A DNA stretch of 64,000 nucleotides from Phycisphaerales bacterium (GTDB taxonomy: Bacteria > Planctomycetota > Phycisphaerae > Phycisphaerales > UBA1924), in assembly GCA_016741915.1 (NCBI GenBank), contig JACVCS010000005.1, positions 1,385 to 65,384 on the forward strand, written 5' to 3'. A model generated the notes under the pieces. The model worked only from the letters and a program-made list of their open reading frames with translations, did not search any database and was not told where the DNA came from. This document shows, in pieces, positions 9,533 to 52,193 of this stretch (the first letter of the stretch is position 1; every line of letters begins with the position of its first letter). The translations under genes were made by a program, and so were the position numbers.

Positions 9533-10420
9533 ATGCCCGCCTCAACGTCCAAACGCTGGATCCTCATCAGCGGCGCATCCACAGGCATCGGGCGCGCGAT
9601 GACGCTCGATCTGCTGGCGCAGGGTTATCACGTGATGGCCGGCGTGCGAAAAGCCGCCGACGCCGACGAACTCCGCCGCCTCGCCTCGGCTCAATCCCCT
9701 CAGCACGGACGCACGCTCGAAACGATGATCCTCGACGTGACGAAGGCCGAGGACATCCAACGCGCCAAGGCCTGGTGCGACACCCTCGCGGCGCAAGGCG
9801 ATTCACTCTGGTCCGTGATCAACAACGCCGGTATCGTCGTGGTCAGCCCCGCAGAGTTCATCCCCATCGACGAACTGCGCAAGCAGATGGACGTGAACTT
9901 CATCGGCGCGGTGGCCCTCACGCAAGCCGCGCTCAGTGCCCTTCGCAGCTCGGGCGGACGGGTCGTCAACATCAGCTCAATCTCCGGGCGACTCTCCCTT
10001 CCCTTCACCTGGCCCTATTCCGCCAGCAAGTACGCCATGGAAGCCTGGAGCGACGGCCTGCGCATGGAACTCCGCCCGCTCGGCGTCGACGTCGTCCTCA
10101 TCGAGCCTGGCTCAATCCAAACGCCCATCTGGGAAAAATCCCTCCGCACCAACCGCGACCTCTTCGACCGCCTGCCAGAAACCGCCCGCACGCTCTACGG
10201 CACCGAACTCAACGCCCTCCAATCCCGCATCGAACAAACCAACCGCGGCGCCGACGTCTCCATCGTCTGCAAAGCCGTGCGCAAGGCCCTCAGCGCCCGC
10301 TCACCCCGCACACGCACGCTTGTCGGCACAGACGCAAAGATCCTCATCTGGTTCAAGCGCCTGCTCCCCGACCGCTGGTTCGACGCCTTCATCCGCAAAG
10401 GCCTGACCAGTTCCGAGTGA
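9533..10420 (+). CDS. short-chain dehydrogenase/reductase (SDR)
   Basis: WILISGASTGIGRAM (TGxxxGxG cofactor motif), NNAG, and the catalytic YSASKYAMEAW (YxxxK). Confidence 0.9.
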   Translation: MPASTSKRWILISGASTGIGRAMTLDLLAQGYHVMAGVRKAADADELRRLASAQSPQHGRTLETMILDVTKAEDIQRAKAWCDTLAAQGDSLWSVINNAGIVVVSPAEFIPIDELRKQMDVNFIGAVALTQAALSALRSSGGRVVNISSISGRLSLPFTWPYSASKYAMEAWSDGLRMELRPLGVDVVLIEPGSIQTPIWEKSLRTNRDLFDRLPETARTLYGTELNALQSRIEQTNRGADVSIVCKAVRKALSARSPRTRTLVGTDAKILIWFKRLLPDRWFDAFIRKGLTSSE

Positions 10421-10596
10421 TCGGCGTTTGATGCCTTGGGTGGCACGGCTCTCCAGAGCCGTGCACGGGGGATGAACATGTAACCACAGCGAAAATCCAC
10501 GGGTACTTCCGCTCGGCCTCTTTCAGCGACCCGGCCTCTCGCGCCCGCCACACCCTCTATCATTCGATCACCGCTCAATCAGCGTGCGGCACACCC

Positions 10597-11088
10597 ATGT
10601 CCAAAGGCGGCAAAAAGAACGATCAGCACGAACGCGTCATCGACAACCGACGCGCCAGCTTTGAATACCACATCGGCGAAACCGTCGAATGCGGCATCGC
10701 CCTGCACGGGCCCGAGGTCAAAAGCGTCCGCGCGGGGCAGGTCTCCATCGCCGAGGGGTTCGTCCGCGCCGAGCCGACGGGCAAGGACACCTTCGAACTC
10801 TTCCTGCACGGGGTGAACATCGCCGAGTACGGGCCCGCGGGCGCCAACCGCGACAAGCCCACACGAACACGCAAGCTCCTCGCCCACAAGCGCGAGATCG
10901 TCCGCCTCTGGAAGGCCAGCCAGGTCAAGGGCAACACCCTCATCCCGCTGCAGATCTACTTCAAAAACGGCTACGCCAAGTGCCTCGTGGGCGTGGGCAC
11001 GGGCAAGCAGCAGCACGACAAGCGACAGACGATCAAAGAGCGCGAGTCGAAACGCGAGATCGCCCGCGCCATCAGCAAGCGCGTCTGA
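10597..11088 (+). CDS. smpB: SsrA-binding protein SmpB
   Basis: 163 aa. VIDNRRASFEYHIGETVECGIALHGPEVKSVRAGQVSIAEGFV, TRKLLAHKREI, IPLQIYFKNGYAKCLVGVGTGKQQHDKR. Canonical SmpB. Confidence 0.95.
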   Translation: MSKGGKKNDQHERVIDNRRASFEYHIGETVECGIALHGPEVKSVRAGQVSIAEGFVRAEPTGKDTFELFLHGVNIAEYGPAGANRDKPTRTRKLLAHKREIVRLWKASQVKGNTLIPLQIYFKNGYAKCLVGVGTGKQQHDKRQTIKERESKREIARAISKRV

Positions 11089-11620
11089 TCACTTCACGCC
11101 AACCCGTTCAGAACCCCGCACATCCACGGTCGGTTCATTCACGCGGCCCGCTTGCGACGCTTCGTGGTGCCGCTCTTCTTCGCACCACTACGCCGAGTAC
11201 GCGTGGGCTTGCCCGTGCCGCTCGCCGATGCGTTACTGAACCCCACGATCGAGAAACTCATCGAAAAAGCCCCGCCCGCCCGCGTGCCGTTCCGCGACGC
11301 CTTACGGGCCTTCGTACCGACCGACCGCGCCACCGACGTACTGGTGGTCTGCCACGATGTCATAGTCCACGGCGTTGCCAGAATCCTCGGCGTGCGCATG
11401 ACCATTCCCTCCGCGAAGAACCCGCCGACCAAACTTCGGGCACAGCCGCCCGCACGCCGATCGACGACATCTTCACTTCGGCCAGATCACCATTCAGGAT
11501 CAGACCCCAAACCCCCCTCAACCAATCCCCCGGCACCCAACCCGCGCACCCGTCAACCCATCACGCCCGCGCCGCCTCGCACCAAACTTCTCGGACCCAG
11601 CCAATCGGACCTAGCCATGG

Positions 11621-11650
11621 AAAAAGGCCCGTAGGCAAAGCCCGGGCCTT
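11621..11650 (-). terminator. rho-independent terminator downstream of atpC
   Basis: On the minus strand: AGGCCCG, loop ggctttgccta, CGGGCCT, then TTTTTCC. The stem arms on the plus strand are 11625-11631 and 11643-11649, and the A-run is 11621-11625. It lies about 60 nt after the atpC stop. Confidence 0.7.
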
Positions 11651-11709
11651 TCAAGAAGTCGTTTCGTTCTCGCTCGCGAACGCTGAGCCCAGAGCACGCA
11701 GAATCGAAA

Positions 11710-12147
11710 TCAGATGCCCTTGCCCGAACGCGCCATCCGCACCGCGACGCGGGCCCGCTCGACGCGTTTCTGACGACGCGTCCGCTCGTTCTGATCGGTC
11801 GTCGCTGCGGCGGCGTTCTGCTCAGCCTTGGTCAACTCGCTCTGCGCCTCGCCCTCGGTGAGCGTCTCGGCCGCTGTCGCGCCGGAGGTCAGGATCGTCA
11901 GCTTGTCGCCGACCATGTGGGCGAAGCCTTCCTCGACCAGGTACTGCCGGCTGCCACCCTCGCCCTTGCTCGAGTCGGCGACATCCACCCGCAGCGGTCC
12001 GATGCCGAGCTTCACAACCATCGGCGCCCGCCCAGGCAGCACACCCAACTGCCCATCGTGCGCCGGCAGAATCACCTGCGACGCCGCAATGTTCAGCAGC
12101 TTGCCCTGAGGAGTGGTCAACGTGAACTGAAAGCTCTTCCCGGCCAT
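11710..12147 (-). CDS. atpC: F0F1 ATP synthase epsilon subunit
   Basis: ORF trimmed to ATG 12145-12147. MAGKSFQFTLTTPQGKLLNIAASQVILPAHDGQLGVLPGRAPMVVKLGIGPLRV...GFAHMVGDKLTILTSGA, followed by a helical C-terminus. Typical epsilon fold signature. Confidence 0.85.
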   Translation of the reverse strand: MAGKSFQFTLTTPQGKLLNIAASQVILPAHDGQLGVLPGRAPMVVKLGIGPLRVDVADSSKGEGGSRQYLVEEGFAHMVGDKLTILTSGATAAETLTEGEAQSELTKAEQNAAAATTDQNERTRRQKRVERARVAVRMARSGKGI

Positions 12148-12284
12148 CGCGGATCTCCAGCCATCCGACCGAGATCCGAACGGGTCGCGGACTGAACACG
12201 CCCACGCCGTCCGTCGATCGGGAGCCAAGCATAGCCCGATCGACCCCGCACGTCCGCCGATTGTTTCCGCATACGCTCCAGCCC

Positions 12285-42560: not shown

Positions 42561-42633
42561 GGGTAGGTAGCTCAGTTGGTAGAGCACCGCATTGAAAATG
42601 CGGGTGTCGCCGGTTCAAGTCCGGCCCTGCCCA
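42561..42633 (+). tRNA. tRNA-Phe (GAA)
   Basis: Cloverleaf folded by hand. Acceptor GGGTAGG pairs with CCTGCCC. D-arm is GCTCAGTTGGTAGAGC. The anticodon loop is tTGAAAa, giving GAA. T-arm is GCCGG-TTCAAGT-CCGGC. The discriminator is A. No CCA is encoded. Confidence 0.9.
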
Positions 42634-43861
42634 CTTGGCCCGATTCTCTGGTAACGCACTCGGGCGCATCGACCCGCAAACCCCGCTGGAAACGCGGGGT
42701 TTTGCTTTTTGCAGGTTCTTCGGTGCCCTTCGATTCGCCCCCATGCCGCGGCGTATTTCCCGTCACGCCGCCCGTGGCGCGGGTCCAATCGGCATCGGTG
42801 ACTTGCAGGTAATGCCCCGCCGCGATCGCCTTCGTGTTGCCGATCCACGCACAAACCGTGTGCAGCGGGAACGTCGCCGCCAGTTCGGTTTGCCGACTTG
42901 CCCGCAGGTTGTGCCACGTCCGATCCCACGGCGTCAGCCCCGCTCGCTTGATGATCCGCCGGAAATGCGGATTCAGGTTTGCGCCTTCCCGATACCGCCC
43001 GATCACAAACACCGCGCCTTCGGGTGCGGCATCAAACACCGCTTGCAGGTGCTCTCGAATCTCAGGGAACAGCGGGATGATCCGCTCCCCCTTGCCTTCG
43101 TGGTGTTCGGTCTTGGGGCTTCGCACCGTCAGCCGGTTGTGTTCCCAATCCACGTCCGACCACCGCAGGGCAAGGGCTTCGCTCGGAACGCGCAGCCCGC
43201 CGAACCGGGACAATGCAATCAACAGCCGCCATTCGGCATCGGGTGCCGCATCGATCACCTTGGCGATCGACTCCCGCGACACGAACACCGCGCGGGCGTG
43301 GTTCACTTGCGCACCCGCCTTCAACTCCGCGAACGGGTTGGCGCTCGCCATGCCGCGACGCATCGCCCAGCGCCACACTTGACGGGCGTACAGAACCGTC
43401 CGGCTGATCGTCGCGGGCGCATACCCCGCGTTGATGAGACTCGCCCGCCATTCGTCCGCGTCGGCTTCCCCGATCGTCGCCACATTGCGGGCTTCAGTGA
43501 AGTGTTCCACCAGCGCCGCCTCAACTTGTTTCATCCGTATCAACGTGGCGGGCTTCACATTCACGCCAGCGAAGAACGCCGCGAGAAGCGTGCCGACGGT
43601 CGAGTCGGTGCGGGCGCGTGCGGGCACCAGCCCGATCCGGGCCAACTTCGCGTGCAGGTCATCGGGAACGGTGCGGACCCATTCACCCGTGGCGGGTGAG
43701 AGAAGCCCGGACACCGACGCGCCTGCCAGGTTCTCGATATGGCCCTTGATCGCGTCGGCTTGCTTCGGCTGAAGCTTGCCGATGCGGATGGTGCGGCGCT
43801 TGCCGCCGAACGCCATCTCAACCCGGAACCGTCCGCCGCCGTCGTGGATGAGGCTCGCCAT
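42572..43861 (-). CDS. tyrosine-type site-specific integrase
   Basis: 429 aa. SAM-like N-domain. Catalytic region RFGGLRVPSEALALRWSDVD...HNLRASRQTELA...VCAWIGNTKAIAAGHYL (R...HxxR...H...Y). The last ~20 codons (GLEPATPAFSMRCSTN) are the antisense of tRNA-Phe. Confidence 0.9.
   Translation of the reverse strand: MASLIHDGGGRFRVEMAFGGKRRTIRIGKLQPKQADAIKGHIENLAGASVSGLLSPATGEWVRTVPDDLHAKLARIGLVPARARTDSTVGTLLAAFFAGVNVKPATLIRMKQVEAALVEHFTEARNVATIGEADADEWRASLINAGYAPATISRTVLYARQVWRWAMRRGMASANPFAELKAGAQVNHARAVFVSRESIAKVIDAAPDAEWRLLIALSRFGGLRVPSEALALRWSDVDWEHNRLTVRSPKTEHHEGKGERIIPLFPEIREHLQAVFDAAPEGAVFVIGRYREGANLNPHFRRIIKRAGLTPWDRTWHNLRASRQTELAATFPLHTVCAWIGNTKAIAAGHYLQVTDADWTRATGGVTGNTPRHGGESKGTEEPAKSKTPRFQRGLRVDAPECVTRESGQVGRAGLEPATPAFSMRCSTN
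42614..42630 (+). repeat. attL core (inside tRNA-Phe T-arm/acceptor)
   Basis: TTCAAGTCCGGCCCTGC, identical to 51807-51823. Confidence 0.85.
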
Positions 43862-43864
43862 GCG

Positions 43865-44560
43865 TCACGCTCCCCCGCGCTTGGGCGCGGTCTTCGTGGT
43901 GGTGCGGGTCTTCTGTTCCGCGGGCACGAGCCGAAGTTTCAAATCAAGAGCCTTCGCCAGCTTCACCGTCGATTCGACGCTGAGGGCCGATTGCTCATTT
44001 GCGAATCTGCTGAGAGCGCCCTGATCGAGCCCGGTGAGAAGCGAGATCTGGTATCGCGACAGCCGCGAGGACATCATCGCCTTTCGGAGTTGCTTGAGGA
44101 TATCGGCCATGAAGTAATCGTACAGAGTTACTTGCTCGCTGTCAAGCAATGCAGCAAGGTGCGGGCGATCGGTGGATAAGTCGTCGAGTTCTCGCGCCCT
44201 GACCGATTCGGGAATCCACTGATGATCTTCGCCGAGTGGTGGTTCTTCGCGGGTCGTTGGGAACCGTCCCCGAGGGAAACGCCACTTGACTACCGGACCG
44301 TCGGAGAACTGATGGAGTGCCAGCGCCGCCGCCGGCCAGTGGGGGGCGATTAGATCAGTGGCTTCGCGAACACCCGCTGCGAAGCCTCGCCGAAAGGCTT
44401 GCTCGGGCCGCACGTCGATGGTGCGGGCCTTCTTCGCGGCGCGTCGACGTCGCCAGCCATAGATCACGTGAACCACCGAGTCGGGTGGGCTTGTCGTCGC
44501 CCCCTCGCCGGAGGTTGGCGCTGCGGGCACGGTGTTCGGTGTTTGGTTTCCTTCTTTCAC
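43865..44560 (-). CDS. XRE-family helix-turn-helix regulator (start uncertain)
   Basis: C-terminal HTH: LRKAMMSSRLSRYQISLLTGLDQGALSRFANEQSALSVESTVKLAKAL. Its stop is 3 nt from the integrase start. Possible starts are GTG 44560, GTG 44476 or ATG 44110 (the last gives an 81-aa HTH-only version). The longest ORF start (44695) lies in the AT-rich repeat region and overlaps the primase gene. Confidence 0.55.
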   Translation of the reverse strand: MKEGNQTPNTVPAAPTSGEGATTSPPDSVVHVIYGWRRRRAAKKARTIDVRPEQAFRRGFAAGVREATDLIAPHWPAAALALHQFSDGPVVKWRFPRGRFPTTREEPPLGEDHQWIPESVRARELDDLSTDRPHLAALLDSEQVTLYDYFMADILKQLRKAMMSSRLSRYQISLLTGLDQGALSRFANEQSALSVESTVKLAKALDLKLRLVPAEQKTRTTTKTAPKRGGA

Positions 44561-44684
44561 TTCTTTCCACCCCCCTCGCGCGGACGCGAGCAAAGAAAAA
44601 CAGAGACTTGTGAGGGGGGGGAGGGAAAGAAGGAAAGAAGTTGAAAAGTGTGTGTTTTCTCTCTTGTTTTCTGCAAAACTTCTT

Positions 44685-46898
44685 TCACGCCGCACCCCCT
44701 TCTTTCACACGGGCCAGTCGATAAACGATCCCCTCCCGACCCCCGGTCGGAACCTTTTCGGGTATCACGTCTCCGCGCTGGGCCAGCGTGTCAATGACCG
44801 AGCCAAACGCCTTCGCATCGAGCTTCGTTGCCCGAAGAAGATCACTGTGCCCCATCGACCGCCCCGGCGCTTCTCGGAGCCGACGAATCACACGCCGCAC
44901 CAGTTCATCGAAGGGGGACTCCGCCGCATGGCTGGCGGCCATGAACAGCGTCCGCCGGGCCTGATGCTTCGCGAAGGCACCCGCCCACCGAATCGCCTCA
45001 GCGCCGATCGACGGGTCTTTGTGGTTCTCACTGATCGCGTAGACCAGCGCCAACTTTCGAGCTTGCTGGTAGACCCGCGCCCACACGGCTAGGGCAATCT
45101 GATCGCCGGCGATCTCGGCCCGTTCATACTCCGCTTCCGCGTCCTTCTTTATTTCTTCCGAGAGGCTATCGCCTTCGGGTGTGATCTCGATCATGCGGGG
45201 GCTGGGGTGTGTCTCTGCCATGTTGCCCGCGCCGGGTTTGAGTTCGGCCCAGAACCGTGCGACTTCCAGCACTCGCTCCGGGATTTCGCGGATAGTTGGT
45301 TTTTGCCCCGCGCCGCGGCGGCCAGCCTCCACGATCGTGAACCGCGCGACAAGTCCGCCGGTGAGTTGCTTCACCGTCAGGGCGCTGTAGAAGTTTGCGG
45401 GCGTTGCCGTACCGAGCAGGTTGAGACAGGGCTGATCGATGCTGAGCCGGTCTTGCCGCCCCGCCTTCAAGCGCAGATTGAAACGTCGATCGGCGTTGCT
45501 GTAGAGCTGGAGCAGCGCTTTCGACAAGCTCTCATATCGGCCGTCCTTCGATTTCGCCACCGAAGTGAGCAGCGTGTCGATTTCGTCGAGCTGAATCAGC
45601 AGGTTCGGCGTGCTGTAAAGCGCGTCCTCCAAACCCTCACCCGACGCGATGCCATCCGCAAGGGATCGACTCATGTTCACCGCGTCGAGAATCATCGAGT
45701 TCGTCTTCCGCGGCGCGTCTTTGCCCGTGCCGGAGTTGGCCAAGGCCAGCGTGTAGAAGTTCGGTCGGTTGTCCAAGGCATCGCGAACCTTGCGCCCCGC
45801 GAGCGTTGCGAGCAGCGCGAGGGCACCCGCAAACGCGAGCGGACGATTCGGGTACGGCGCGCTCGCGAGTGTGTACGCCATCACGTCGCCGATGAACCCG
45901 GGGACGTTGAACAGTTCGGCGGGCATGTGCCCCGGGTCTTCGTCGTCGAAGCAGCGCGCATCGGTCGGCGTCGAGGTCTTCGCATCGAGATAGCTGAGGT
46001 CGACGCCGTAGGTATCGACGATCCGCTCGGCCTTCTCGCGCGGGTACTTCGCCCCGCCGTCCAGGCCGGATCGGATCGTCGCGAACGCCTCGGCGTCGCC
46101 CAGACCACACTGGCGGGCCGCGGCCATCAGCGCCCGCTCGGCGTCCGACCGCTCGATCTCGTGCGGAATGAGCTGCCCGATCTTGAACGCCGCGGTATTC
46201 AGCCGGTGGTTCCGCCCGCCCTCGGCGGTGCTGGCAACGTCGCTGCACTCGGCCTCGAGAACCCGAGCCCCGTAGACCGTCGTAGAGCCCGCAGGAGCCA
46301 TCGGAGCCGCGAGGGGTGCCGAGGGTGCCCCCGAACCCTTCGCGGGCTTGGCCTGCCAGCCGCACGCGGTCGCGAGGGCTTCCAGATTGACCCGCAGGTG
46401 TTCCGGGTCGATCGGTGCCGGGTCGCCGGGCCATTCGTTCACCGTTGAACCGTCCGGGGCCATCCAGACGATCCGCTCGCCGGTGGGGTGGACCGAGCCG
46501 GGGGCGACGGTCTGGCACCCGGTGGACCGCAGTTCGAGGATCATCGACCCGTCGGGCGCGAGAAACTTCCGCGTTGGCGCGGGCGAGGTGAGGCGGTAGA
46601 GGCGGTGCGAGCGCGGAGCGCCGGCACGTCCGAACGTGGCGGGCGTGGGGGGGAGAAAGTCATCGGCCAGGCGGCGGGCGTCGTCGCTGTCCAGGTCGAT
46701 ATCGATCACCCAGCCGGAAGGCTCGCCCAGCAGGGTGCCGATGTTGGCGGATTCATCGATGAACGCCCCGGCGAGTTGATCGCCCGTGAGTCTGAGCGTT
46801 TGCCAGCCCGCGATCGCTGGGGCTTTCGCCCGTGGTGGGATCGGGAGAACCCGGAGCCCGCCCTCGGTGAGCTGGCGCGCATGGTCGAGGATCGTCAC
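44685..46898 (-). CDS. bifunctional primase-polymerase (Prim-Pol N-domain) fused to a DUF3987-like helicase/NTPase region
   Basis: 737 aa, GTG start. N-terminus GLRVLPIPPRAKAPAIAGWQ...GWVIDIDLDSDD...RSHRLYRL...ELRSTGCQTVAPGSVHPTG (bifunctional DNA primase/polymerase pattern). The large C-terminal domain is typical of island replicases. Confidence 0.8.
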   Translation of the reverse strand: MTILDHARQLTEGGLRVLPIPPRAKAPAIAGWQTLRLTGDQLAGAFIDESANIGTLLGEPSGWVIDIDLDSDDARRLADDFLPPTPATFGRAGAPRSHRLYRLTSPAPTRKFLAPDGSMILELRSTGCQTVAPGSVHPTGERIVWMAPDGSTVNEWPGDPAPIDPEHLRVNLEALATACGWQAKPAKGSGAPSAPLAAPMAPAGSTTVYGARVLEAECSDVASTAEGGRNHRLNTAAFKIGQLIPHEIERSDAERALMAAARQCGLGDAEAFATIRSGLDGGAKYPREKAERIVDTYGVDLSYLDAKTSTPTDARCFDDEDPGHMPAELFNVPGFIGDVMAYTLASAPYPNRPLAFAGALALLATLAGRKVRDALDNRPNFYTLALANSGTGKDAPRKTNSMILDAVNMSRSLADGIASGEGLEDALYSTPNLLIQLDEIDTLLTSVAKSKDGRYESLSKALLQLYSNADRRFNLRLKAGRQDRLSIDQPCLNLLGTATPANFYSALTVKQLTGGLVARFTIVEAGRRGAGQKPTIREIPERVLEVARFWAELKPGAGNMAETHPSPRMIEITPEGDSLSEEIKKDAEAEYERAEIAGDQIALAVWARVYQQARKLALVYAISENHKDPSIGAEAIRWAGAFAKHQARRTLFMAASHAAESPFDELVRRVIRRLREAPGRSMGHSDLLRATKLDAKAFGSVIDTLAQRGDVIPEKVPTGGREGIVYRLARVKEGGAA

Positions 46899-46988
46899 GC
46901 GACACCCCCGCCGATGGTCGCCCGCGTAACATTGCCCGACGATTCACAACCTGCCCGCTGTTCCGCCCCCGCGGCCATCGGGCTTTCT

Positions 46989-47228
46989 TCAAGCCGTCGC
47001 CCTTCCGTCATCGCTGCCCCCCTTCATGAATGCCCGGAGTGATTCGACGCACACCAGCCGTGCGCGTCCGACCGTTCGCGAACGAATCGCGCCGGTCCTG
47101 ATGAGCTTGTCGATCGTCCTCGGCGAGAGCCCCAGCGCCCGCGCCGCTTCATCGGGCCGAACCGCGATCGGTTCGAGCTTCGCGGGCGTTGGCGTCTTCT
47201 CCGCGTTGGCGGGCCAGTTCTCCATCAT
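46989..47228 (-). CDS. excisionase-like / MerR-type HTH DNA-binding protein
   Basis: 79 aa. IAVRPDEAARALGLSPRTIDKLIRTGAIRSRTVGRARLVCVESLRAFM (HTH_17/Xis-like). Confidence 0.65.
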   Translation of the reverse strand: MMENWPANAEKTPTPAKLEPIAVRPDEAARALGLSPRTIDKLIRTGAIRSRTVGRARLVCVESLRAFMKGGSDDGRATA

Positions 47229-47455
47229 GCCGCACCCCCGGCGCTGGGGGCGTTGGTCGCGTTTTCCTTGGCGCGGGCGTCGAGAGCCGCCTCAACGTCT
47301 GCGGGCTTCGCGAGCCATCGACGCGAAGCGCGGAGGCAAGGGATACGGCGCGCCCGCGCTTCATCGAGGAGCCATCGCGCCGGTAGACGCAAACGCTTCG
47401 CCACTTCGCGAATCGGTATGTACGTGTCGTCAATCGCACCCATGCCCATGAGCAT
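47225..47455 (-). CDS. second excisionase-like HTH protein
   Basis: 76 aa. YIPIREVAKRLRLPARWLLDEARARRIPCLRASRRWLAKPADVEAAL. Overlaps the next gene by 4 nt. Confidence 0.6.
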   Translation of the reverse strand: MLMGMGAIDDTYIPIREVAKRLRLPARWLLDEARARRIPCLRASRRWLAKPADVEAALDARAKENATNAPSAGGAA

Positions 47456-47485
47456 CGGCGCTGATGTGAGGCTTGTGAAGCCCGT

Positions 47486-48373
47486 TCACTCGCGTGCTGC
47501 TGAGGTGCTGCCGTGCTGCTGAGATGCTGCCAAGTTTCTCAACGCCAAGGCGATGCGTTGTCGGTCGATAAACGGGCCGCGTTCCGTCGCGTCGGCCATG
47601 CGGGTGATTTCTTCGGGCGTGTACCGCCGATTGCGGGATGAGTGTCCCCGTTCGTGCGTCTTCATGCCCGCCGCCTTGCGGATTCGCCGGAACGTGTCGA
47701 AGGTCATCTCCCGACCCAGCGCCGCGAGGATGCGTGAATCGCCGCGAATCTGCTCCGAGGTCAAACCAACGTCCGCCGATGCCGATCGGTGAGAAGTCAT
47801 CGCCGCATCACTCGCCGCCGCGAACGCCTCGGCGTGGTGCTTCCAGTCTTCGGCGCTTTGTGCGAGCTGCCCAACGATCGGCCCCGATTCAATCGGCGAG
47901 CGTTCGAGCGGGTGCGTGGTTATCCAGCCGTGCCAGAGTTTGCGTGCCGCGCGCACGCGCCGCACCGCCCAGACTCCATCGTCAAGGTGAATCGGTTTCA
48001 CCGTCACGTCGCCCGATACGTCCAGGCTGGTTTGCACTTCAACCGCTATCGCCTCGGCGCGGGCGAAGGTGTCGGCGAGTTCTTCGTCGATGCCCACCAT
48101 CCGCTCGATTGTCTGCTTCGCCTTCGCGGGCCTCTTCGCGAGCCGCCTCCAGGCTTCAAGCCATGCCGCCGCGTCGGTCCTCAGCCCGGAGGATTCGCCC
48201 CGCCAGAGGTCAACGTAGGGGACGATCCACTCACCATCGGGATCGAGTTCGGGGCGCGCCGCGTCGATCTCTTCGCGCCAGTCGTCGCGAAGGACCGCGA
48301 GACTGTGGGCGAGCTGGTCGAGAAGGTCGGCGAGTTCGGGCGCGAGTTCGCCCGGTGATCGAAGGGGTTTCAT
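47486..48373 (-). CDS. hypothetical protein of the integrative element
   Basis: ORF trimmed to ATG 48371-48373 (MKPLRSPGELAPELADLLDQL...). Acidic and helical. No family recognised. Confidence 0.5.
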   Translation of the reverse strand: MKPLRSPGELAPELADLLDQLAHSLAVLRDDWREEIDAARPELDPDGEWIVPYVDLWRGESSGLRTDAAAWLEAWRRLAKRPAKAKQTIERMVGIDEELADTFARAEAIAVEVQTSLDVSGDVTVKPIHLDDGVWAVRRVRAARKLWHGWITTHPLERSPIESGPIVGQLAQSAEDWKHHAEAFAAASDAAMTSHRSASADVGLTSEQIRGDSRILAALGREMTFDTFRRIRKAAGMKTHERGHSSRNRRYTPEEITRMADATERGPFIDRQRIALALRNLAASQQHGSTSAARE

Positions 48374-48684
48374 TGCCGTGCCTCGGCGTTGCCGGGCGGG
48401 CGGGGGGTTGACGCGAGGCACGCGCCCACCCCGCCACCCCTTGCCCCACCCGCCGGCCAGCGTGTGGGGACACCCAACGCCCGGAGCATAGCGAGTTGAT
48501 GGGTCGGGTGGAGTCGGTGCCCTATCGCGACTGTTCCCAATGCACCACCGCCGCCAAACACCCGAGGAAGGACCCGCCCGAGTTCTGTGGGTCCTTCCCG
48601 GGGGTCTTCGTTTGCTGCGTGCATTGGGAACAGTCAAACTATTCGACCGACTACACCCCAAACCGGGGAACCCGCTTCGAGCAT

Positions 48685-48724
48685 GAAAAAAGCAGGGGCG
48701 GAAGGCTCTAAAGCCCGCCGCCCC
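48685..48724 (-). terminator. rho-independent terminator after the tape-measure gene
   Basis: Minus strand: GGGGCGG, a 16-nt loop, CCGCCCC, tgc, TTTTTT. The stem arms on the plus strand are 48695-48701 and 48718-48724, and the A-run is 48685-48690. Confidence 0.65.
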
Positions 48725-48778
48725 GCGTCCCCACCCCTGAGCCCGTCGCCATCCTTGGCGGGCCTCAGCCGTTCACGA

Positions 48779-50719
48779 TCATGGACCGATGCCGTCTTCA
48801 CTCTGCCCGGTGTTGCGCTTGATTTCGCGAAGTTCGGCGTAGATCTTCTCGGCGCGGTCGCTGATCCTCTCGATCGCGCCCACCGACCCGCCGCCCATGA
48901 GGGCCGCGTCGCCCGCGAAGAACGTGCCTCGTGGGCTGATCGCCGATGTTGCCGCTTCAAGGACCGCGGGGATATCCGCCGCCATCTGTTGGAGCTTCGC
49001 CGCGTACTCGCTGAGCCCCGGGCCGAAGTCCATGCCGTCGCCCTTGACCGTCCAGCCATCGGAGGGGAACGCGCCCTCGGCGACGGCGCGAAGGGCCGCG
49101 TCAAACTCCGCGAGCCCGTTGTCGGCGAGCCGGTTCGACGCCACCCGTGAGGCGCTGTCGGCGATCGCTTTCTCGAGCGCGTCCGCCGCTCGCTGTACCC
49201 CGGCGTCGATGCCCGAGCTGATCGTCGCGTCGATCTTCGTGAGTGAATCTCGCATCGCCTGATTTTCGAGCTTCGTGCGTTCGTCGATCGCCTTCCCCAG
49301 CCCTTGGGCGTTGGCATCGAGCCCGATCACCGCTTTTCGGAGGTCAACGCCGAAGGCCTTTTTGTCTTCGCCCCAGATGTTCGGCACGTCGATCAATCCG
49401 AAAAGGCTCTGGTCTTCGCCGAAGAGGTTGCCCGACACCGCTTCGTCGAGCCGCTTGCCAAGATACCCGCTGATGCTCGCGTCGCTGGTGCCGACCGCAA
49501 CTTCCGTACGGATTGATTCGAGGCCCTTGCGGATTTCGCCGAACGCACGCTCAAACGCGAGGGCGACACCCGCCGCCGCGATCTCGGCCGCGCCTTGCCA
49601 ATCGCTGTTCTTCAGCGCGTCGAGGATCGCCTTGAATGTCTTCTCGGCGTCGTCGCCCAGGGCGCGGAAGGCTTTGGCGCCCCGCTCGGCGAGGTCTTCA
49701 ATGTTCGTCGTGAGCCCGATGGTTGCGGCTGTGATGCCCCCGAGGGCGGTGGCGATCATCCCCAAGGGCGAGCCCATCACCGCGAAGAGCGCCCCACCGA
49801 CGGACACCAGCCCCGCCATCGCGACCCCCGCCGCCGTGAGCGCCGCACCGACCGCCGCCGCGCCGCCGGCGATGAGGGCCAGGTCCTTCACCGCGCGGGG
49901 GTTGTCGGCGAGAAACTTCGAGAACGCACCGACGACCGACGACACCGCGTCGAGGGCCTTGACCATGGCCGGCGCGAGCGCCGCACCCGCCGCGTTCGCC
50001 GCCCCGCGTAGGGCGTCCTGCACTTCGTCGAGCTTGTCGCCCAGTTCGTCGGCGAGCTTCACCGCGTCGTCGCTGAGGACGATGCCGAGGGCCTTGGCGC
50101 GTGCGGCGAAGTCGTCGAGCCCGCGCGAGCCGCGCGCGAGCATCGGGATGATCTTGGTCCCCGACTTGCCGAAGACGGCCATCGCCGCGGTGGATCGCTG
50201 GGCCGGGTCGTCGATCGAGGCGAGGGCGTCGGCGATCGAGCGGAAGGCCGCATCGGGTGCCATGCCGACCAGGGCGTCGGTGCTGATGCCCAGCCGGGCG
50301 AGGGCGTCCGCCGCTGATACTGAGTCTTCGTCGGCGCGGGTGATGGTCTTCGAGAGGTTGCGGAGCGCCGCTTCGAGGTCTTCGGCGCTCGCCCCCGATT
50401 GGCGGGCCGCGAAGAGAAGCGCTTGCAGGGCTTCGACCCCCACCCCGGTACGGGCGCTCAGGTCGGCAACTTCGCTGCCCGCCTTGGCGAAGGCAACACC
50501 CGCGCCACCGAGCCCGCCAAGGATCGCGGTACCCACCCCGGCGAAGCTGATCCCCAGCGCGTTCACCGTGCCGGCGAAGTCGGAGAGCCGCTTGCTCATC
50601 GCATTCAGCCCCGCCCGCACGTTGTCCTTCAAGCCGATTTCGACAACCGCCTTACCCGCTCTGATCGCCGATGCGTTCGACACGATGCACCCCCATGTAT
50701 TCGGCCCCGAGGATCGCAC
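48779..50719 (-). CDS. phage tail tape measure protein (TP901-type core)
   Basis: 646 aa. GTG start at 50719, or GTG 50683. Core region LSARTGVGVEALQALLFAARQSGASAEDLEAALRNLSKTI...ALARLGISTDALVG...AVFGKSGTKIIPML. Long Ala/Gly-rich helical and TM-like segments follow (AGGAAAVGAALTAAGVAMAGLVSVGGALFAVMG). Confidence 0.8.
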   Translation of the reverse strand: MRSSGPNTWGCIVSNASAIRAGKAVVEIGLKDNVRAGLNAMSKRLSDFAGTVNALGISFAGVGTAILGGLGGAGVAFAKAGSEVADLSARTGVGVEALQALLFAARQSGASAEDLEAALRNLSKTITRADEDSVSAADALARLGISTDALVGMAPDAAFRSIADALASIDDPAQRSTAAMAVFGKSGTKIIPMLARGSRGLDDFAARAKALGIVLSDDAVKLADELGDKLDEVQDALRGAANAAGAALAPAMVKALDAVSSVVGAFSKFLADNPRAVKDLALIAGGAAAVGAALTAAGVAMAGLVSVGGALFAVMGSPLGMIATALGGITAATIGLTTNIEDLAERGAKAFRALGDDAEKTFKAILDALKNSDWQGAAEIAAAGVALAFERAFGEIRKGLESIRTEVAVGTSDASISGYLGKRLDEAVSGNLFGEDQSLFGLIDVPNIWGEDKKAFGVDLRKAVIGLDANAQGLGKAIDERTKLENQAMRDSLTKIDATISSGIDAGVQRAADALEKAIADSASRVASNRLADNGLAEFDAALRAVAEGAFPSDGWTVKGDGMDFGPGLSEYAAKLQQMAADIPAVLEAATSAISPRGTFFAGDAALMGGGSVGAIERISDRAEKIYAELREIKRNTGQSEDGIGP

Positions 50720-50811
50720 GCGCCCCCGCGCGTTGGTTGACGATCACCGAGGCCAGTGTAAACCAACGCCGAGCCGCTGGGCTGGGCGCTGGGTCTGTGT
50801 GCTGTCGTCGA

Positions 50812-51234
50812 TCACTTCGAGAACGTGCCCCGCCAGGCGCGGAGTTCGCTGCTTCGCGCTTCGATGGTGGTTTTTTCACCGCTGCGCAAGGTGATCGCGA
50901 TGCTCAAGCTGTCGGGGTGCGGGTAACGCTTGCGATTGATGGGGAGGTCCGGATTGATGGGGGTACCGAACCACTCGATCACGCCCTCCCAACATTTGCG
51001 ATCTTCCCCGATCGTGTGGAACATCGCCGCCATGCCGCTGCGGAGGTTCTTGATCTCGGTCGGTTCATAGCTGATCCGGTTCCAGTCCAGAGCCGCCGCT
51101 GGGGCCGATGCCGCCCCGCCGGGCTTGGCTGGCGATGCGGGGGCCTTGCGGGTGCCCGGAGGCTTGCGGTCGCGCCGTGCGGGCTTGGCGGGCTTGCTTG
51201 TGCGTGAACGATCCTGCGAACGGAGTGATACCAT
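50812..51234 (-). CDS. hypothetical protein (in the position of a tail assembly chaperone)
   Basis: 140 aa, ATG 51232-34. Basic Pro/Lys-rich N-terminus followed by a globular C-terminus. It lies immediately upstream of the tape-measure gene. Confidence 0.45.
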   Translation of the reverse strand: MVSLRSQDRSRTSKPAKPARRDRKPPGTRKAPASPAKPGGAASAPAAALDWNRISYEPTEIKNLRSGMAAMFHTIGEDRKCWEGVIEWFGTPINPDLPINRKRYPHPDSLSIAITLRSGEKTTIEARSSELRAWRGTFSK

Positions 51235-51306
51235 CGGTCGATTCCTGATGCTGGCTGCCTCAGAACGCCGCCCGCGTCGCCAGCAAGGGCGCGGGCGGCG
51301 GTACTT

Positions 51307-51624
51307 TCAGCGTGATCGCGAACCACAAACGGCCAGTGTGTACTTCGGACGGTCGTCCTTATGCCAACCGGTGAAGAGTGCGGCACCGACGATGCGAGAG
51401 TCTGATTTGCAGAGGCGCTCCATCAACGAATCCAGCGACCCGCCGCGGAGGTTGATCGGCGCTGGGCTGAGCCGATGCGTGGGTGTACTCAAGAGCCTTG
51501 CCAGTCGCCCCGCATCTTCGTGGCTGTACGTCACGAGCAAGAACTTCGCTGGCTTTCCAGAGAGATCACCCGGAAGAAGCGTGGGCTCTCCGCGATGCAC
51601 CAGAATGTGCTGCTCCAACTTCAT
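51307..51624 (-). CDS. hypothetical protein (in the position of a tail assembly chaperone)
   Basis: Trimmed to ATG 51622-24 (MKLEQHILVHRGEPTLLPGDLSGKPAKFLLVTYSHEDAGRLARLL...). It is the first gene inside attR. Confidence 0.45.
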   Translation of the reverse strand: MKLEQHILVHRGEPTLLPGDLSGKPAKFLLVTYSHEDAGRLARLLSTPTHRLSPAPINLRGGSLDSLMERLCKSDSRIVGAALFTGWHKDDRPKYTLAVCGSRSR

Positions 51625-51806
51625 CGCGCCCTCCCTTCCTCGAAGTTGCCGACCAGGGAGAGAACCGCCCGCCGGATCGCCGGGGGAAGGGCGGCCCATG
51701 CCGCCATCACCCGCGCGAGGTCCGGGTCGATCGGTGCCCCGATCCCGTCACTTTTCACGTCAGCCGGCGCGAGACTTGCGGTATTTCCCGTGTTTGACGG
51801 GGCGTA

Positions 51807-51823
51807 TTCAAGTCCGGCCCTGC
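51807..51823 (+). repeat. attR core (displaced copy of the tRNA-Phe 3' end)
   Basis: TTCAAGTCCGGCCCTGC. There is no tRNA 5' half upstream of it. Confidence 0.85.
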
Positions 51824-52193
51824 TCATTGGTCGATTTTCTACAGCATCACACAGAACCCCAACCCCCACGAAATCCGCAGGATTGTGGGGGTTTTGTGTT
51901 TTGGGGTGGTGTGCGTTGGTGCCGACCGTGTGCGTGCACGTTTCCGGATGTGTTGCCGGAGGCGTTCGTACAAATGTGGCCGCCGCGTTTAACCTGCCGG
52001 GCTGGCTGTTCAACGTTCAGGCCCCCGCAGAGTTCCACCAACCTCCGCTCCATCCTCGGTCGTCACCGATCATCTCGCGACCGATCGCCACCCGCGAAGC
52101 GCATCGACAAAGTTCCGCCTTTCCGGGTGTGGACCAACTCTTCACTTACGACGACGGTGGGCTCTCCGTGACCGCAATGACACTCCACCAAAC

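What the first reader, a model, noticed from the sequence alone, without database searches (positions are those of the whole stretch)
42561..51823. 9.2-kb integrative element in tRNA-Phe with clear att repeats and a satellite-like (PICI/SaPI-type) gene set
The 3' part of tRNA-Phe (TTCAAGTCCGGCCCTGC, 42614-42630) is repeated perfectly at 51807-51823, and flanking similarity decays over about 20 more nt. Between the repeats every gene is on the minus strand. In order they are two small genes, a tape-measure gene, a terminator, a hypothetical gene, two excisionase-like HTH genes, a Prim-Pol/DUF3987 replicase, an AT-rich repeat region, an XRE regulator and an integrase. At 9.2 kb, with no capsid, portal, terminase or lysis genes, it cannot be an autonomous phage. 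The combination of int, regulator, xis-like genes and primase-replicase followed by an iteron-like region resembles phage-inducible chromosomal islands, which have scarcely been described outside Firmicutes and Gammaproteobacteria. It could equally be a decayed prophage.
Basis: partly seen in the sequence, partly recalled or inferred. Interest (0 to 1): 0.6.

Follow-up and report, generated by a model that had tools for sequence, protein, structure and literature searches.

The report
Tape-measure-carrying satellite-like island in Phycisphaerales
A 9.2-kb mobile island in the tRNA-Phe gene of a wastewater Phycisphaerales bacterium carries its own integration and replication genes but only one virus-particle gene, a tail tape measure, so it is most likely a parasite of a tailed phage, the first such candidate in the Planctomycetota.

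Summary
tRNA-Phe (42561-42634) and a 17-nt repeat of its 3' end (42614-42630 = 51807-51823; none expected by chance) bracket nine co-directional genes. These are a tyrosine integrase, an XRE regulator, a PrimPol-helicase with six GAAAGAAG iterons, two excisionase-like HTH genes, an HTH protein, a real tape-measure protein (TMP) and two small genes.

It is not a decayed prophage:
- Three further variants in other metagenomes keep the same gene order while swapping modules.
- One copy is 95-99% identical in its backbone, yet the host there has flanking genes only about 88% identical (int dS 0.10, dN/dS 0.03, against host dS 0.6).
- A 92% sister strain has an intact tRNA-Phe, with homology ending exactly at the island edge.

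Both PrimPol (with its origin) and TMP have their nearest outside relatives in one widespread Planctomycetota siphophage lineage, the likely helper. The integrase gene spans attP. Only the excised circle encodes full-length Int, which is translationally coupled to the TMP operon.

Best reading (0.55): a phage satellite that supplies its own TMP, as Vibrio PLEs do. Helper dependence is untested. It is a new variant of a known kind and of moderate interest.

The parts
42561..42634 (+). tRNA-Phe(GAA), intact; its 3' end is the integration target and forms attL
   Evidence: ARAGORN; Rfam tRNA 73 bits. The sequence is identical to the uninterrupted tRNA-Phe of sister contigs L012/L013.
42614..42633 (.). 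attL core: 17 nt exact (42614-42630), 20 nt with one mismatch to attR
   Evidence: Homology with the island-free sister contig L012 stops at 42633.
42635..42760 (+). Island-side arm (P') with a hairpin plus T-run that terminates the regenerated tRNA
   Evidence: Terminator-like site at 42678-42702; sequence.
42572..43861 (-). Tyrosine integrase, integrated-state form of 429 aa. Catalytic R224, H317-x-x-R320, W339 and Y351 are present. The last ~20 codons are antisense tRNA.
   Evidence: PF00589 and phrog_1; motif positions; dN/dS 0.03 against the L005 copy.
43865..44560 (-). 231-aa regulator with a C-terminal XRE-type HTH_3 domain and an N-terminal domain of unknown function
   Evidence: HTH_3 1.3e-4. 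The start was set from L005's gene call and from the GC3 drop upstream. It differs by 1 nt in 696 from L005.
44545..44710 (.). Probable origin of replication: six GAAAGAAG iterons (2 direct, 2 inverted, 2 direct) around an AT-rich spacer, overlapping the PrimPol stop codon
   Evidence: The DNA is similar (71-77%, E 3e-11) to the stretch just after the PrimPol stop in many phages of the related lineage. The motif is 33-fold enriched there across 82 loci.
44685..46898 (-). Bifunctional primase-polymerase (AEP) fused to a DUF3987-type helicase: the replicase
   Evidence: PF09250 3e-16 and phrog_3022 1e-61. The invariant D66/D68/D70, H137, S389-G392-K393 and D438-E439 of the family are kept. It is 94% identical to the L005 copy, dN/dS 0.35.
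46989..47228 (-). HTH_17 protein A (79 aa), excisionase/AlpA-like
   Evidence: PF12728 3e-9; phrog_66. Conserved at 46-68% in the variants.
47225..47455 (-). HTH_17 protein B (76 aa), excisionase-like
   Evidence: phrog_1840 excisionase 1.2e-8. Conserved at 63-68% in the variants.
47486..48373 (-). 295-aa protein with a unique N-terminal part and a C-terminal HTH-like DNA-binding module. This position is exchangeable: L005 has a non-homologous 244-aa gene here.
   Evidence: One full-length homologue (57%, in L101) and about 29 matches to residues ~205-280 only. No Pfam, PHROG or PADLOC hit.
48374..48680 (.). Conserved non-coding control region. It holds a ~70-nt near-invariant block before the start codon and a 146-nt dyad (48510-48655) with 15-nt arms CTGTTCCCAATGCAC/GTGCATTGGGAACAG. 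Function unknown; it could be an operator, a pac-like site or an RNA.
   Evidence: Alignment of three variants; fold -80.6 kcal/mol, z -7.6; inverted repeat I1.
48685..48737 (-). Intrinsic terminator after the TMP gene
   Evidence: Hairpin plus U-run, -32.9 kcal/mol; conserved in L101.
48779..50719 (-). Tail tape-measure protein (634-646 aa) with a hydrophobic segment at residues 280-338
   Evidence: PHROG TMP families down to 2e-30; PF10145 weak. It is 35-38% identical to TMPs sitting in complete siphophage tail modules, L017 and L018. Variant alleles are 71% (L101) and 35.5% (L005) identical. Hydrophobic run.
50812..51234 (-). 140-aa protein: a disordered basic tail with the invariant KPAKPARxDRKPPGTRKAP motif, plus a small beta-barrel
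   Evidence: Alignment A3; AF2 model with pLDDT ~88 in the barrel. No significant PDB or BFVD match and no tail-chaperone fold.
51307..51624 (-). 105-aa alpha/beta protein. Its ATG overlaps the stop of the integrase 3' exon-like segment (ATGA).
51621..51806 (-). 3' end of the integrase gene as it exists in the excised circle (about 62 codons), severed from int by integration
   Evidence: An in-silico circle gives a 477-aa Int. The peptide GAPxDPDLARVMAAWAxLPPAIRRAVLxL and the ATGA overlap are conserved in L102.
51807..51826 (.). attR core (17 nt exact, then TCA in place of the tRNA's CCA)
   Evidence: The island copy in runs X1-X4 matches up to 51828 and then joins a different flank.
51827..52193 (.). 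Non-coding right flank. Its first ~100 nt resemble the island's own P' arm (tRNA end plus terminator). It may be the ghost of an older related element, or host tRNA-downstream DNA.
   Evidence: Alignment better than 300/300 shuffles; terminator-like site at 51874-51889. No homology to relatives' DNA beyond the DUF1501 stop.

Best explanation
The island is an active integrative, self-replicating element that most likely lives as a satellite of a tailed phage. Shown steps and inferred steps are marked.

1. Integration (shown). A tyrosine integrase inserted a ~9.2-kb circle into the 3' end (T-arm side) of tRNA-Phe. The island regenerates the tRNA and leaves the displaced 3' fragment at the far end.
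2. Split integrase gene (shown). attP lies inside the integrase gene, as in phage Mx8. The integrated copy encodes a 429-aa Int with a junk tail. Only the excised circle encodes the 477-aa Int, whose stop overlaps the start of the first gene of the TMP operon.
3. Excision (inferred). One or both HTH_17 proteins act as the excisionase or activator. Closing the ring makes all genes one co-directional circuit, so the small-gene/TMP operon can be read through from int only after excision.
4. Replication. The homology is shown; the function is inferred. The PrimPol-helicase fires the iteron origin next to its own stop codon. This replicon type is shared with a widespread Planctomycetota siphophage lineage.
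5. Spread (inferred). The island has no capsid, portal, terminase or lysis genes, so it relies on a helper, probably of that same lineage, whose TMPs are its own TMP's closest outside relatives. It inserts its own TMP into the helper's tails, as Vibrio PLEs do, and is packaged and transduced.
For: att ends and target.

Island-free sister: L012 and L013 are 92% and 88% identical over the left flank. Both have an intact tRNA-Phe, and homology ends exactly at 42633.

Recent horizontal movement:
- The copy in runs X1-X4/L005 is 97% identical over int-XRE-PrimPol (about 95% in PrimPol alone) and about 99% at the right end.
- It sits in tRNA-Phe next to the same upstream gene, which is only about 88% identical there and has matching read depth.
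- It joins a different right flank.
- int dS is 0.098, against host DUF1501 dS of about 0.6.

Functional genes: int dN/dS is 0.03, the catalytic residues are intact, and the family-invariant PrimPol motifs are kept.

A family, not debris:
- L005/L006 and L101-L103 keep the order small-small-TMP-HTH protein-HTH-HTH-replicase.
- TMP alleles are 71% and 35.5% identical.
- One variant has a swapped replicase (AAA_25).
- One variant abuts a different tRNA 3' end.

Phage ancestry and candidate helper:
- 80 of 80 genome loci with PrimPol relatives are prophages of one lineage (serine recombinase, AAA_24, DUF669, DEAD helicase, PrimPol, ParB-MTase, GpA terminase, portal, capsid). Many are in Phycisphaerales MAGs, and none has the island layout.
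- The origin DNA after the PrimPol gene is conserved between the island and these phages.
- The nearest non-island TMPs lie in complete tail modules of phages whose terminase and portal are 64-67% identical to that lineage.

Split integrase and coupling.

Precedents: PLE satellites replace the helper's TMP, TAC and hub, and putative tmp genes occur in other satellites (PMC12987554). EPIP satellites carry a TMP (PMC12822802). Mx8 and SSV integrases extend across attP (PMC4383910).
Against:
- No small terminase, capsid-redirecting gene or recognisable pac/cos site was found.
- The two small genes next to the TMP are not tail-assembly chaperones by sequence or predicted fold.
- No close relative of the PrimPol or TMP occurs in IMG/VR viral contigs. 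Only two distant hits occur in JGI metagenome contigs, so there is no sign of encapsidation and the family is rare.
- No circular junction was seen. The runs are held only as contigs, and the one 'goes back' joint is better read as a related variant's arm.
- All genes are co-directional, unlike the divergent repressor/activator switch of PICIs.
- The right flank of the window is not syntenic with any relative, so a clean attB reconstruction is missing and a contig-assembly join at attR cannot be excluded.
Confidence: 0.55

Rival explanations
1. It is a mobile anti-phage island rather than a satellite. The element integrates and replicates as described. Its TMP homologue, with the two small proteins, acts as a decoy that enters or blocks the tail assembly of infecting phages of the related lineage. 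This protects the host population. The element spreads by some other route, such as generalised transduction or vesicles.
For: - The TMP is the only structural gene, and it evolves fast with whole-allele swaps (35-71% identity between otherwise related islands; dN/dS 0.41), as expected for a protein in conflict with phages.
- Tail-assembly interference is a known defence strategy of PICIs and PLE11 (PMC11364771, PMC12987554).
- No packaging function was found on the island.
Against: - There are no PADLOC hits apart from a marginal one.
- Defence and satellite lifestyles are not exclusive.
- A pure defence cassette does not need its own phage-type replicon and excision-coupled operon.
- The near-identical copy in an ~88% divergent host calls for an efficient transfer route.
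Confidence: 0.17
2. It is an integrative mobilisable or AICE-like element. It excises, replicates with its PrimPol replicon, and moves by conjugation or an unknown DNA-transfer system. The TMP gene is an inherited passenger from a phage ancestor.
For: - int + xis + PrimPol-type Rep at a tRNA in about 9 kb is also the layout of actinomycete AICEs (own knowledge).
- There are no viral-contig relatives.
- Most tRNA islands that are not prophages have an unexplained means of mobility (PMC4383910).
Against: - No relaxase, FtsK/TraB-like translocase, coupling protein or oriT-like feature was found among the nine genes.
- A passenger gene would not be retained, swapped for distant alleles and kept in the same operon position in four variants.
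- The replicon and the TMP both trace to one phage lineage.
Confidence: 0.1
3. It is a decayed prophage remnant: an immobile leftover of a larger phage, kept only because deletion has not yet removed it.
For: - Both the PrimPol and the TMP are phage genes.
- The island lacks everything else a phage needs.
- The right flank may contain the ghost of another element.
Against: - There are no pseudogenes, and int dN/dS is 0.03.
- The same nine-gene layout is conserved in variants down to 35-70% protein identity.
- A 95-99% identical backbone copy sits in a host whose chromosomal genes show dS ~0.6.
- Islands integrate in two different tRNAs.
- The related phages use a serine recombinase, not this tyrosine integrase.
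Confidence: 0.05

Closest known systems
[quoted passage not shown]
   Same: A small integrated element with its own replicase and origin and no capsid genes of its own. It encodes a tape-measure protein distantly related to the helper's (PLE 20%; here 35-38% to the candidate helper lineage). PLE shows experimentally that a satellite TMP replaces the phage TMP in chimeric tails.
   Different: - There is no sequence relationship.
- PLEs use a large serine recombinase and a RepA_N initiator.
- They also carry a tail-assembly chaperone, a baseplate hub, a capsid scaffold (TcaP) and many anti-ICP1 genes, at about 18 kb.
- They parasitise a lytic myophage.
- Here the element is 9.2 kb, has a tyrosine integrase at a tRNA and an AEP PrimPol-helicase, has no demonstrable chaperone or hub, and the candidate helper is a temperate siphophage lineage.
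- Nothing has been tested experimentally.
PICIs / SaPIs (Fillol-Salom et al. 2018; SatelliteFinder, de Sousa et al. 2023; own knowledge and PMC11364771)
   Same: The size class. An integrase at one end, AlpA/excisionase-like HTH_17 genes directly upstream of a primase-replicase, and an iteron origin next to the replicase gene. No lysis genes and almost no structural genes.
   Different: - None of terS, ppi, cpm or rpp was found.
- There is no divergent Stl-type repressor, and all genes are on one strand.
- A tail gene is present.
- The integrase gene spans attP.
- The host phylum is Planctomycetota.
EPIPs of Mycolicibacterium aichiense (bioRxiv 2025, PMC12822802)
   Same: A satellite class noted for carrying a tape-measure protein. 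Its particles have altered tail lengths.
   Different: EPIPs were isolated as particles. They have a serine integrase, a small terminase, head-to-tail adaptor and stopper proteins and scaffold/capsid-like genes. None of these is present here.
Myxophage Mx8 integrase IntP/IntX, and SSV-type integrases (Tojo et al. 1996, cited in PMC4383910)
   Same: attP lies inside the integrase coding sequence, so integration into a tRNA gene replaces the C-terminal end of Int with another tail.
   Different: Mx8 is a complete phage. Here the severed 3' segment is in addition translationally coupled (ATGA) to the next operon, so the ring closes a single co-directional gene circuit. The functional consequence is untested.
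Tycheposons and VEIMEs of marine bacteria (Hackl et al. 2023; Eppley et al. 2022; own knowledge, mentioned in PMC12822802)
   Same: Tyrosine-recombinase elements at tRNA genes with PICI-like primase/helicase replication modules and few or no structural genes, thought to ride in phage particles.
   Different: They come from different hosts and have different integrase clades. A TMP module is not known as a defining part. No homology was tested here.

Membership tests
tRNA-targeting tyrosine-integrase genomic island (Islander definition) | An intact tDNA at one end, a displaced 3' tDNA fragment at the other, and an integrase gene inside or overlapping | tested here: met
   The crossover lies in the T-arm/acceptor 3' region.
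tRNA-targeting tyrosine-integrase genomic island (Islander definition) | A related genome with the uninterrupted target lacking the island | tested here: met
   In L012/L013, tRNA-Phe is intact, homology ends at 42633 and ftsY follows. The right flank is not syntenic, so only the left junction is matched. Runs X1-X4 give an empty-site-like contig whose flank resembles the occupied right flank there.
Phage satellite (general) | Lacks the genes for an autonomous virion and lysis | tested here: met
   There are nine genes. None matches a capsid, portal, terminase, tail tube, baseplate or lysis family in Pfam or PHROGs.
Phage satellite (general) | Induced by, packaged by and transferred with a specific helper phage | not testable with these tools
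   This needs induction/transduction experiments or virome reads.
Phage satellite (general) | Own replicon (initiator plus origin) active after excision | tested here: inconclusive
   The PrimPol-helicase motifs are intact and the iteron cluster is homologous to that of the related phages. Activity was not tested.
PICI / SaPI | A packaging/interference module (terS, ppi, cpm, rpp or a capsid-size redirection gene) | tested here: not met
   No such family was hit. The unknown genes (295, 140 and 105 aa) have no matches or informative folds.
PICI / SaPI | A master repressor (Stl) or alpA switch divergently arranged from the int side | tested here: not met
   All genes are on the minus strand. 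The HTH_17 alpA-like genes do lie upstream of the replicase, so there is a partial resemblance only.
PLE | Homology to PLE core genes (large serine recombinase, RepA_N initiator, TcaP); restricted to Vibrio/ICP1 | tested here: not met
   The integrase is a tyrosine recombinase and the replicase is an AEP PrimPol. The host is a Phycisphaerales bacterium.
PLE | Satellite-encoded TMP with a tail-assembly chaperone and hub that replace the helper's | tested here: inconclusive
   A TMP is present and homologous to phage TMPs. No chaperone or hub is detectable by sequence or fold. Incorporation into tails was not tested.
cf-PICI | Own capsid, portal, protease, terminase and head-tail connectors | tested here: not met
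   None is present.
P4-like satellite | psu, delta, sid, the cnr/epsilon set and a P4 alpha-type primase | tested here: not met
   Pfam and PHROG scans of the nine genes returned none of these. The only parallel is a primase-helicase fusion of a different family.
Defective prophage remnant | Pseudogenes, lineage-specific debris and no conserved architecture elsewhere | tested here: not met
   The frames are intact, int dN/dS is 0.03, four variants share the layout and there is evidence of horizontal transfer.

The most novel reading that the evidence does not exclude
This is the first phage-satellite family of the Planctomycetota. It is a minimal 9-kb 'gene ring' whose integrase gene is cut by integration. 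Only the excised circle restores full-length Int and places the small-gene/TMP operon under read-through and translational coupling from int. Excision itself would then switch on production of a private tape measure, which replaces the helper siphophage's TMP in hijacked tails.
Probability: 0.3. Interest if true: 0.7.

Novelty: new variant of a known kind. Interest (0 to 1): 0.5.

Why it matters
Phage satellites are well documented mainly in Firmicutes and Proteobacteria. My two literature searches found no paper describing one in Planctomycetota.

Satellite manipulation of phage tails through a private tape measure was shown experimentally only in 2025-2026, for Vibrio PLEs. This island suggests the same trick evolved independently in a very small element of a distant phylum. 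It also names a candidate helper lineage, a widespread Planctomycetota siphophage with a PrimPol replicon.

The split-integrase ring gives a simple, testable model of excision-coupled gene expression. The element is compact (nine genes) and its modules are swappable. That makes it a tractable object for asking which minimal gene set suffices to parasitise a tailed phage.

The value is tempered. Nothing is shown experimentally, the hosts are uncultured, and other unchecked notes of this scan suggest TMP-carrying satellite-like islands are common in Proteobacteria.

Tried and rejected
- **Exact empty-site junction.** Relatives with ~87% identical DUF1501 (L007-L011, L015) have other neighbours (SpoIIE or phosphomutase) and no tRNA. 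The sister of the left flank (L012) continues into ftsY-nusB-ribH. A left+right empty site therefore does not exist in the data.
- **Circular junction.** Runs X1-X4 are held only as contigs. No attP joint appeared. The single 'goes back 9131' joint has its sides outside both cores. I read it as the arm of a related variant.
- **IMG/VR.** There are no close relatives of the PrimPol or TMP. The 15-nt arm of the conserved dyad gave 68 single hits, which BLAST showed to be unrelated, so they are chance.
- **JGI metagenome contigs.** Only two distant N-terminal PrimPol hits.
- **Small genes as tail-assembly chaperones.** No similarity to the genes upstream of the TMP in phages L017/L018. The predicted folds (a beta-barrel; an alpha/beta fold like TTHA0547) do not match chaperone structures.
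- **Defence function.** PADLOC gave only marginal hits.
- **Rfam.** Only the tRNA.
- **cos/pac similarity between island non-coding DNA and the phage loci.** None, apart from the origin region.
- **Composition.** Neither GC nor GC skew marks the island.

Full report
**1. Observation**

The window has one tRNA gene, tRNA-Phe(GAA), at 42561-42634. The 17-mer TTCAAGTCCGGCCCTGC from its T-arm/acceptor 3' side occurs exactly twice, at 42614-42630 and 51807-51823. None is expected by chance. Read with the flanks, the identity is 20 nt with one mismatch: CTGCCCA in the tRNA and CTGCTCA at the far end. The next ~100 nt of both flanks are more alike than 300 of 300 shuffles.

Between the repeats, the GC3-supported frames are all on the minus strand:
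- int, 42572-43861
- an XRE-type regulator, 43865-44560
- a PrimPol-helicase, 44685-46898
- two HTH_17 genes, 46989-47228 and 47225-47455
- a 295-aa gene, 47486-48373
- a tape-measure gene, 48779-50719
- two small genes, 50812-51234 and 51307-51624

The flanking genes are chromosomal: sucC and a secreted hypothetical on the left, and DUF1501/DUF1800 on the right. The runs that hold the sequence are activated-sludge metagenomes.

**2. It is a real element that moved recently, not debris**

The left-flank protein clusters with a Logan variant. Its contigs L012 and L013 are 92% and 88% identical to the window from 38934 (L012) and 40951 (L013) up to 42633, that is, exactly to the end of the tRNA. 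They then continue into ftsY-nusB-ribH with no island.

The PrimPol clusters with a protein on contigs L005/L006. Those contigs carry the same element:
- int is 99.4% identical, XRE 99.6% and PrimPol 94% at protein level.
- The right end is about 99% identical at DNA level.
- The centre is replaced. The TMP is only 35.5% identical, a non-homologous 244-aa gene stands in place of the 295-aa gene, and there are an extra antisense HTH gene and a MarR-like gene.

Laying the contigs of runs X1-X4 on the window gives four results:
- This copy also sits in tRNA-Phe behind the same upstream gene.
- That upstream gene and DUF1501 are only about 87-88% identical to the window there.
- The depths of flank and island match (about 11-13).
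- The island's right end joins a different flank after 51828. That flank resembles the sequence following an unoccupied tRNA-Phe on another contig of run X3.

Synonymous divergence of int between the two copies is 0.098 with dN/dS 0.03. Host DUF1501 has dS about 0.6 against relatives of that identity class. The last 340 codons of PrimPol plus the whole XRE gene differ by a single base. This points to ongoing recombination among circulating islands.

Contigs L101-L103, from other metagenomes, add further variants at about 75% DNA identity with the same order: small gene 35%, small gene 41%, TMP 71%, 295-aa homologue 53%, and HTH_17 genes 68% each. After these comes either the MarR-like gene, or, in L101, an HTH_17-AAA_25 replicase instead of PrimPol. 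The right end of L102 abuts the 3' end of a different tRNA, TCAAGTCCTGTTGCGACCA.

A nine-gene layout that survives this much divergence and module exchange is a functional element family.

**3. Where the parts come from**

The PrimPol's nearest relatives outside the family (34-54% identity) were surveyed in three contigs and 80 genome loci. The loci long enough to judge show one conserved temperate-phage layout, and a few short contigs carried no marker. That layout is serine recombinase, AAA_24, DUF669, (RusA), DEAD helicase, PrimPol, ParB-methyltransferase, GpA-type terminase, portal and capsid. It occurs in Phycisphaerales, Pirellulales and other Planctomycetota, including cultured strains. 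None has a TMP beside the PrimPol, and none has this tyrosine integrase.

The 160 nt after the island's PrimPol stop hold six GAAAGAAG copies, two direct, two inverted and two direct, around an AT-rich spacer. These are six of only seven copies in 64 kb. This non-coding stretch is 71-77% identical (E 3e-11) to the stretch after the PrimPol stop in many of those phages, although the proteins are only about 40% identical. The core motif is 33 times denser there than elsewhere across 82 loci. I read this as the cognate iteron origin, shared by the island and the phages.

The TMP's nearest non-island relatives (35-38% over the N-terminal 60%) are tape measures inside complete tail modules (L017, L018). 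L017's terminase and portal are 64-67% identical to those of the PrimPol phages. The replicon and the only structural gene therefore point to the same phage lineage. That lineage infects the host's order and is the obvious helper candidate.

**4. The integrase gene spans attP**

The int frame has no stop before 42572, so its last codons are antisense tRNA. Joining the island's ends in silico gives a 477-aa Int. Its last ~62 codons lie at the island's right end, 51621-51806. That segment is conserved as protein in L102 (GAPxDPDLARVMAAWAxLPPAIRRAVLxL), although L102 uses another tRNA. In both elements its TGA overlaps the ATG of the first small gene, as ATGA.

Integration therefore truncates Int, as in Mx8 IntP/IntX (PMC4383910). 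It also cuts the small-gene/TMP operon off from int. In the circle, all genes form one co-directional ring. That excision thereby switches on the TMP operon is my inference.

**5. What stays unknown**

- The 295-aa protein has one full-length homologue and a C-terminal HTH shared with about 29 otherwise unrelated proteins.
- The 140-aa protein has an invariant basic motif (KPAKPARxDRKPPGTRKAP) and a small beta-barrel.
- The 105-aa protein is alpha/beta, with TTHA0547 as its best match at TM 0.55.
- Neither small protein resembles tail-assembly chaperones.
- A ~300-nt non-coding region between the TMP terminator and the 295-aa gene is conserved in all variants, even in front of the non-homologous L005 gene. 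It holds a 146-nt dyad (-80.6 kcal/mol, z -7.6) with sequence-conserved 15-nt arms. It could be an operator, a packaging site or an RNA. I found no counterpart in the phage loci or IMG/VR.

**6. Interpretation**

Known satellites combine int, an AlpA/Xis-type regulator, a primase-replicase with an adjacent origin, and some means of exploiting helper virions. Until recently none was known to carry a TMP. PLEs are now shown to replace ICP1's TMP, chaperone and hub in chimeric tails. Putative tmp genes were also noted in other putative satellites (PMC12987554), and EPIPs of Mycolicibacterium carry one (PMC12822802).

The island works like these elements. It fails the membership tests for PICI (no packaging/interference genes, no divergent switch), PLE, cf-PICI and P4.

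I put the satellite reading at 0.55. Weighing against it:
- no helper, packaging gene or packaging site
- no encapsidation evidence
- no chaperone

The rivals are a mobile tail-interference defence island (0.17), a conjugation-type integrative element (0.10) and a dead remnant (0.05).

**7. Caveats**

- The window's right flank is not syntenic with any relative.
- Its first ~100 nt look like the island's own integrase-side arm. It may be the ghost of an older tandem element followed by a rearrangement. Alternatively, the metagenome contig may be misjoined at attR.
- Other notes of this scan list several TMP-carrying satellite-like islands in Proteobacteria. I did not check them. They lower the surprise but are not evidence.

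**8. Verdict**

The element is a new variant of a known kind, of moderate interest (0.5).

Noticed in passing
L001-L004, L019-L098 (PrimPol at about 10001-12200 in most loci): One conserved temperate siphophage lineage is widespread in Planctomycetota, in Phycisphaerales, Pirellulales and cultured Stieleria, Novipirellula, Rubripirellula and Aporhodopirellula. Several genomes carry 2-3 copies. Its layout is serine recombinase, AAA_24, DUF669, RusA, DEAD helicase, PrimPol-helicase, ParB-methyltransferase, GpA terminase, portal and capsid. In about half of the loci a GAAAGAA-type iteron cluster lies right after the PrimPol stop.
   Followed up: partly
window 48510-48655 (also L101 2712-2860, L005 2921-3070): A 146-nt dyad/hairpin (-80.6 kcal/mol, z -7.6) with sequence-conserved 15-nt arms CTGTTCCCAATGCAC / GTGCATTGGGAACAG and an inner GGGACCC/GGGTCC stem. 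It is conserved in all island variants. L005 has an extra partial copy. Function unknown.
   Followed up: partly
window 48374-48450: A ~70-nt block just before the start codon of the 295-aa gene is almost invariant in three variants that are otherwise about 75% identical. It is conserved even in L005, where the downstream gene is not homologous. It folds into a GC-rich hairpin (-50.4 kcal/mol).
   Followed up: partly
window 51824-52193: A 370-nt non-coding right flank with no homology in relatives. Its first ~100 nt mimic the island's own integrase-side arm (tRNA end plus terminator). A minor contig in run X1 joins a similar arm to a variant int 3' end. It may be the ghost of an older tandem island and the site of a rearrangement that brought DUF1501 next to tRNA-Phe.
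   Followed up: partly
L101 4140-5363: In one island variant the second HTH_17 gene is fused to an AAA_25 (RepA/DnaB-like) ATPase of 407 aa. This replaces the MarR-like gene and presumably the PrimPol of its sisters L102/L103. It is a replicase-module swap in an otherwise syntenic element.
   Followed up: no
L016 3108-15400 (Planctomycetota MAG, GCA_038748615.1): A 758-aa TMP homologue (30% identity) lies in a stretch that begins right after a truncated comM (Mg-chelatase-like) gene. The stretch also holds a DnaB_C/AAA_25 helicase, a winged-helix protein and an HNH protein. No capsid, portal or terminase hit lies within 10 kb. It may be another tape-measure-carrying island with a different backbone and target.
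   Followed up: partly
window 50812-51234; L005 107-517; L102 547-1005: The 140-aa protein keeps an invariant basic, proline-rich motif (KPAKPARxDRKPPGTRKAP) in a predicted disordered tail, while its folded domain has diverged to 41% identity. It looks like a conserved docking or nucleic-acid-binding peptide.
   Followed up: partly
window 44685-45700 vs L005: The last ~340 codons of PrimPol plus the whole XRE gene differ by one base between the window and L005. The first 400 PrimPol codons carry 105 differences and int carries 24. This marks a sharp recombination boundary inside the replicase gene.
   Followed up: yes
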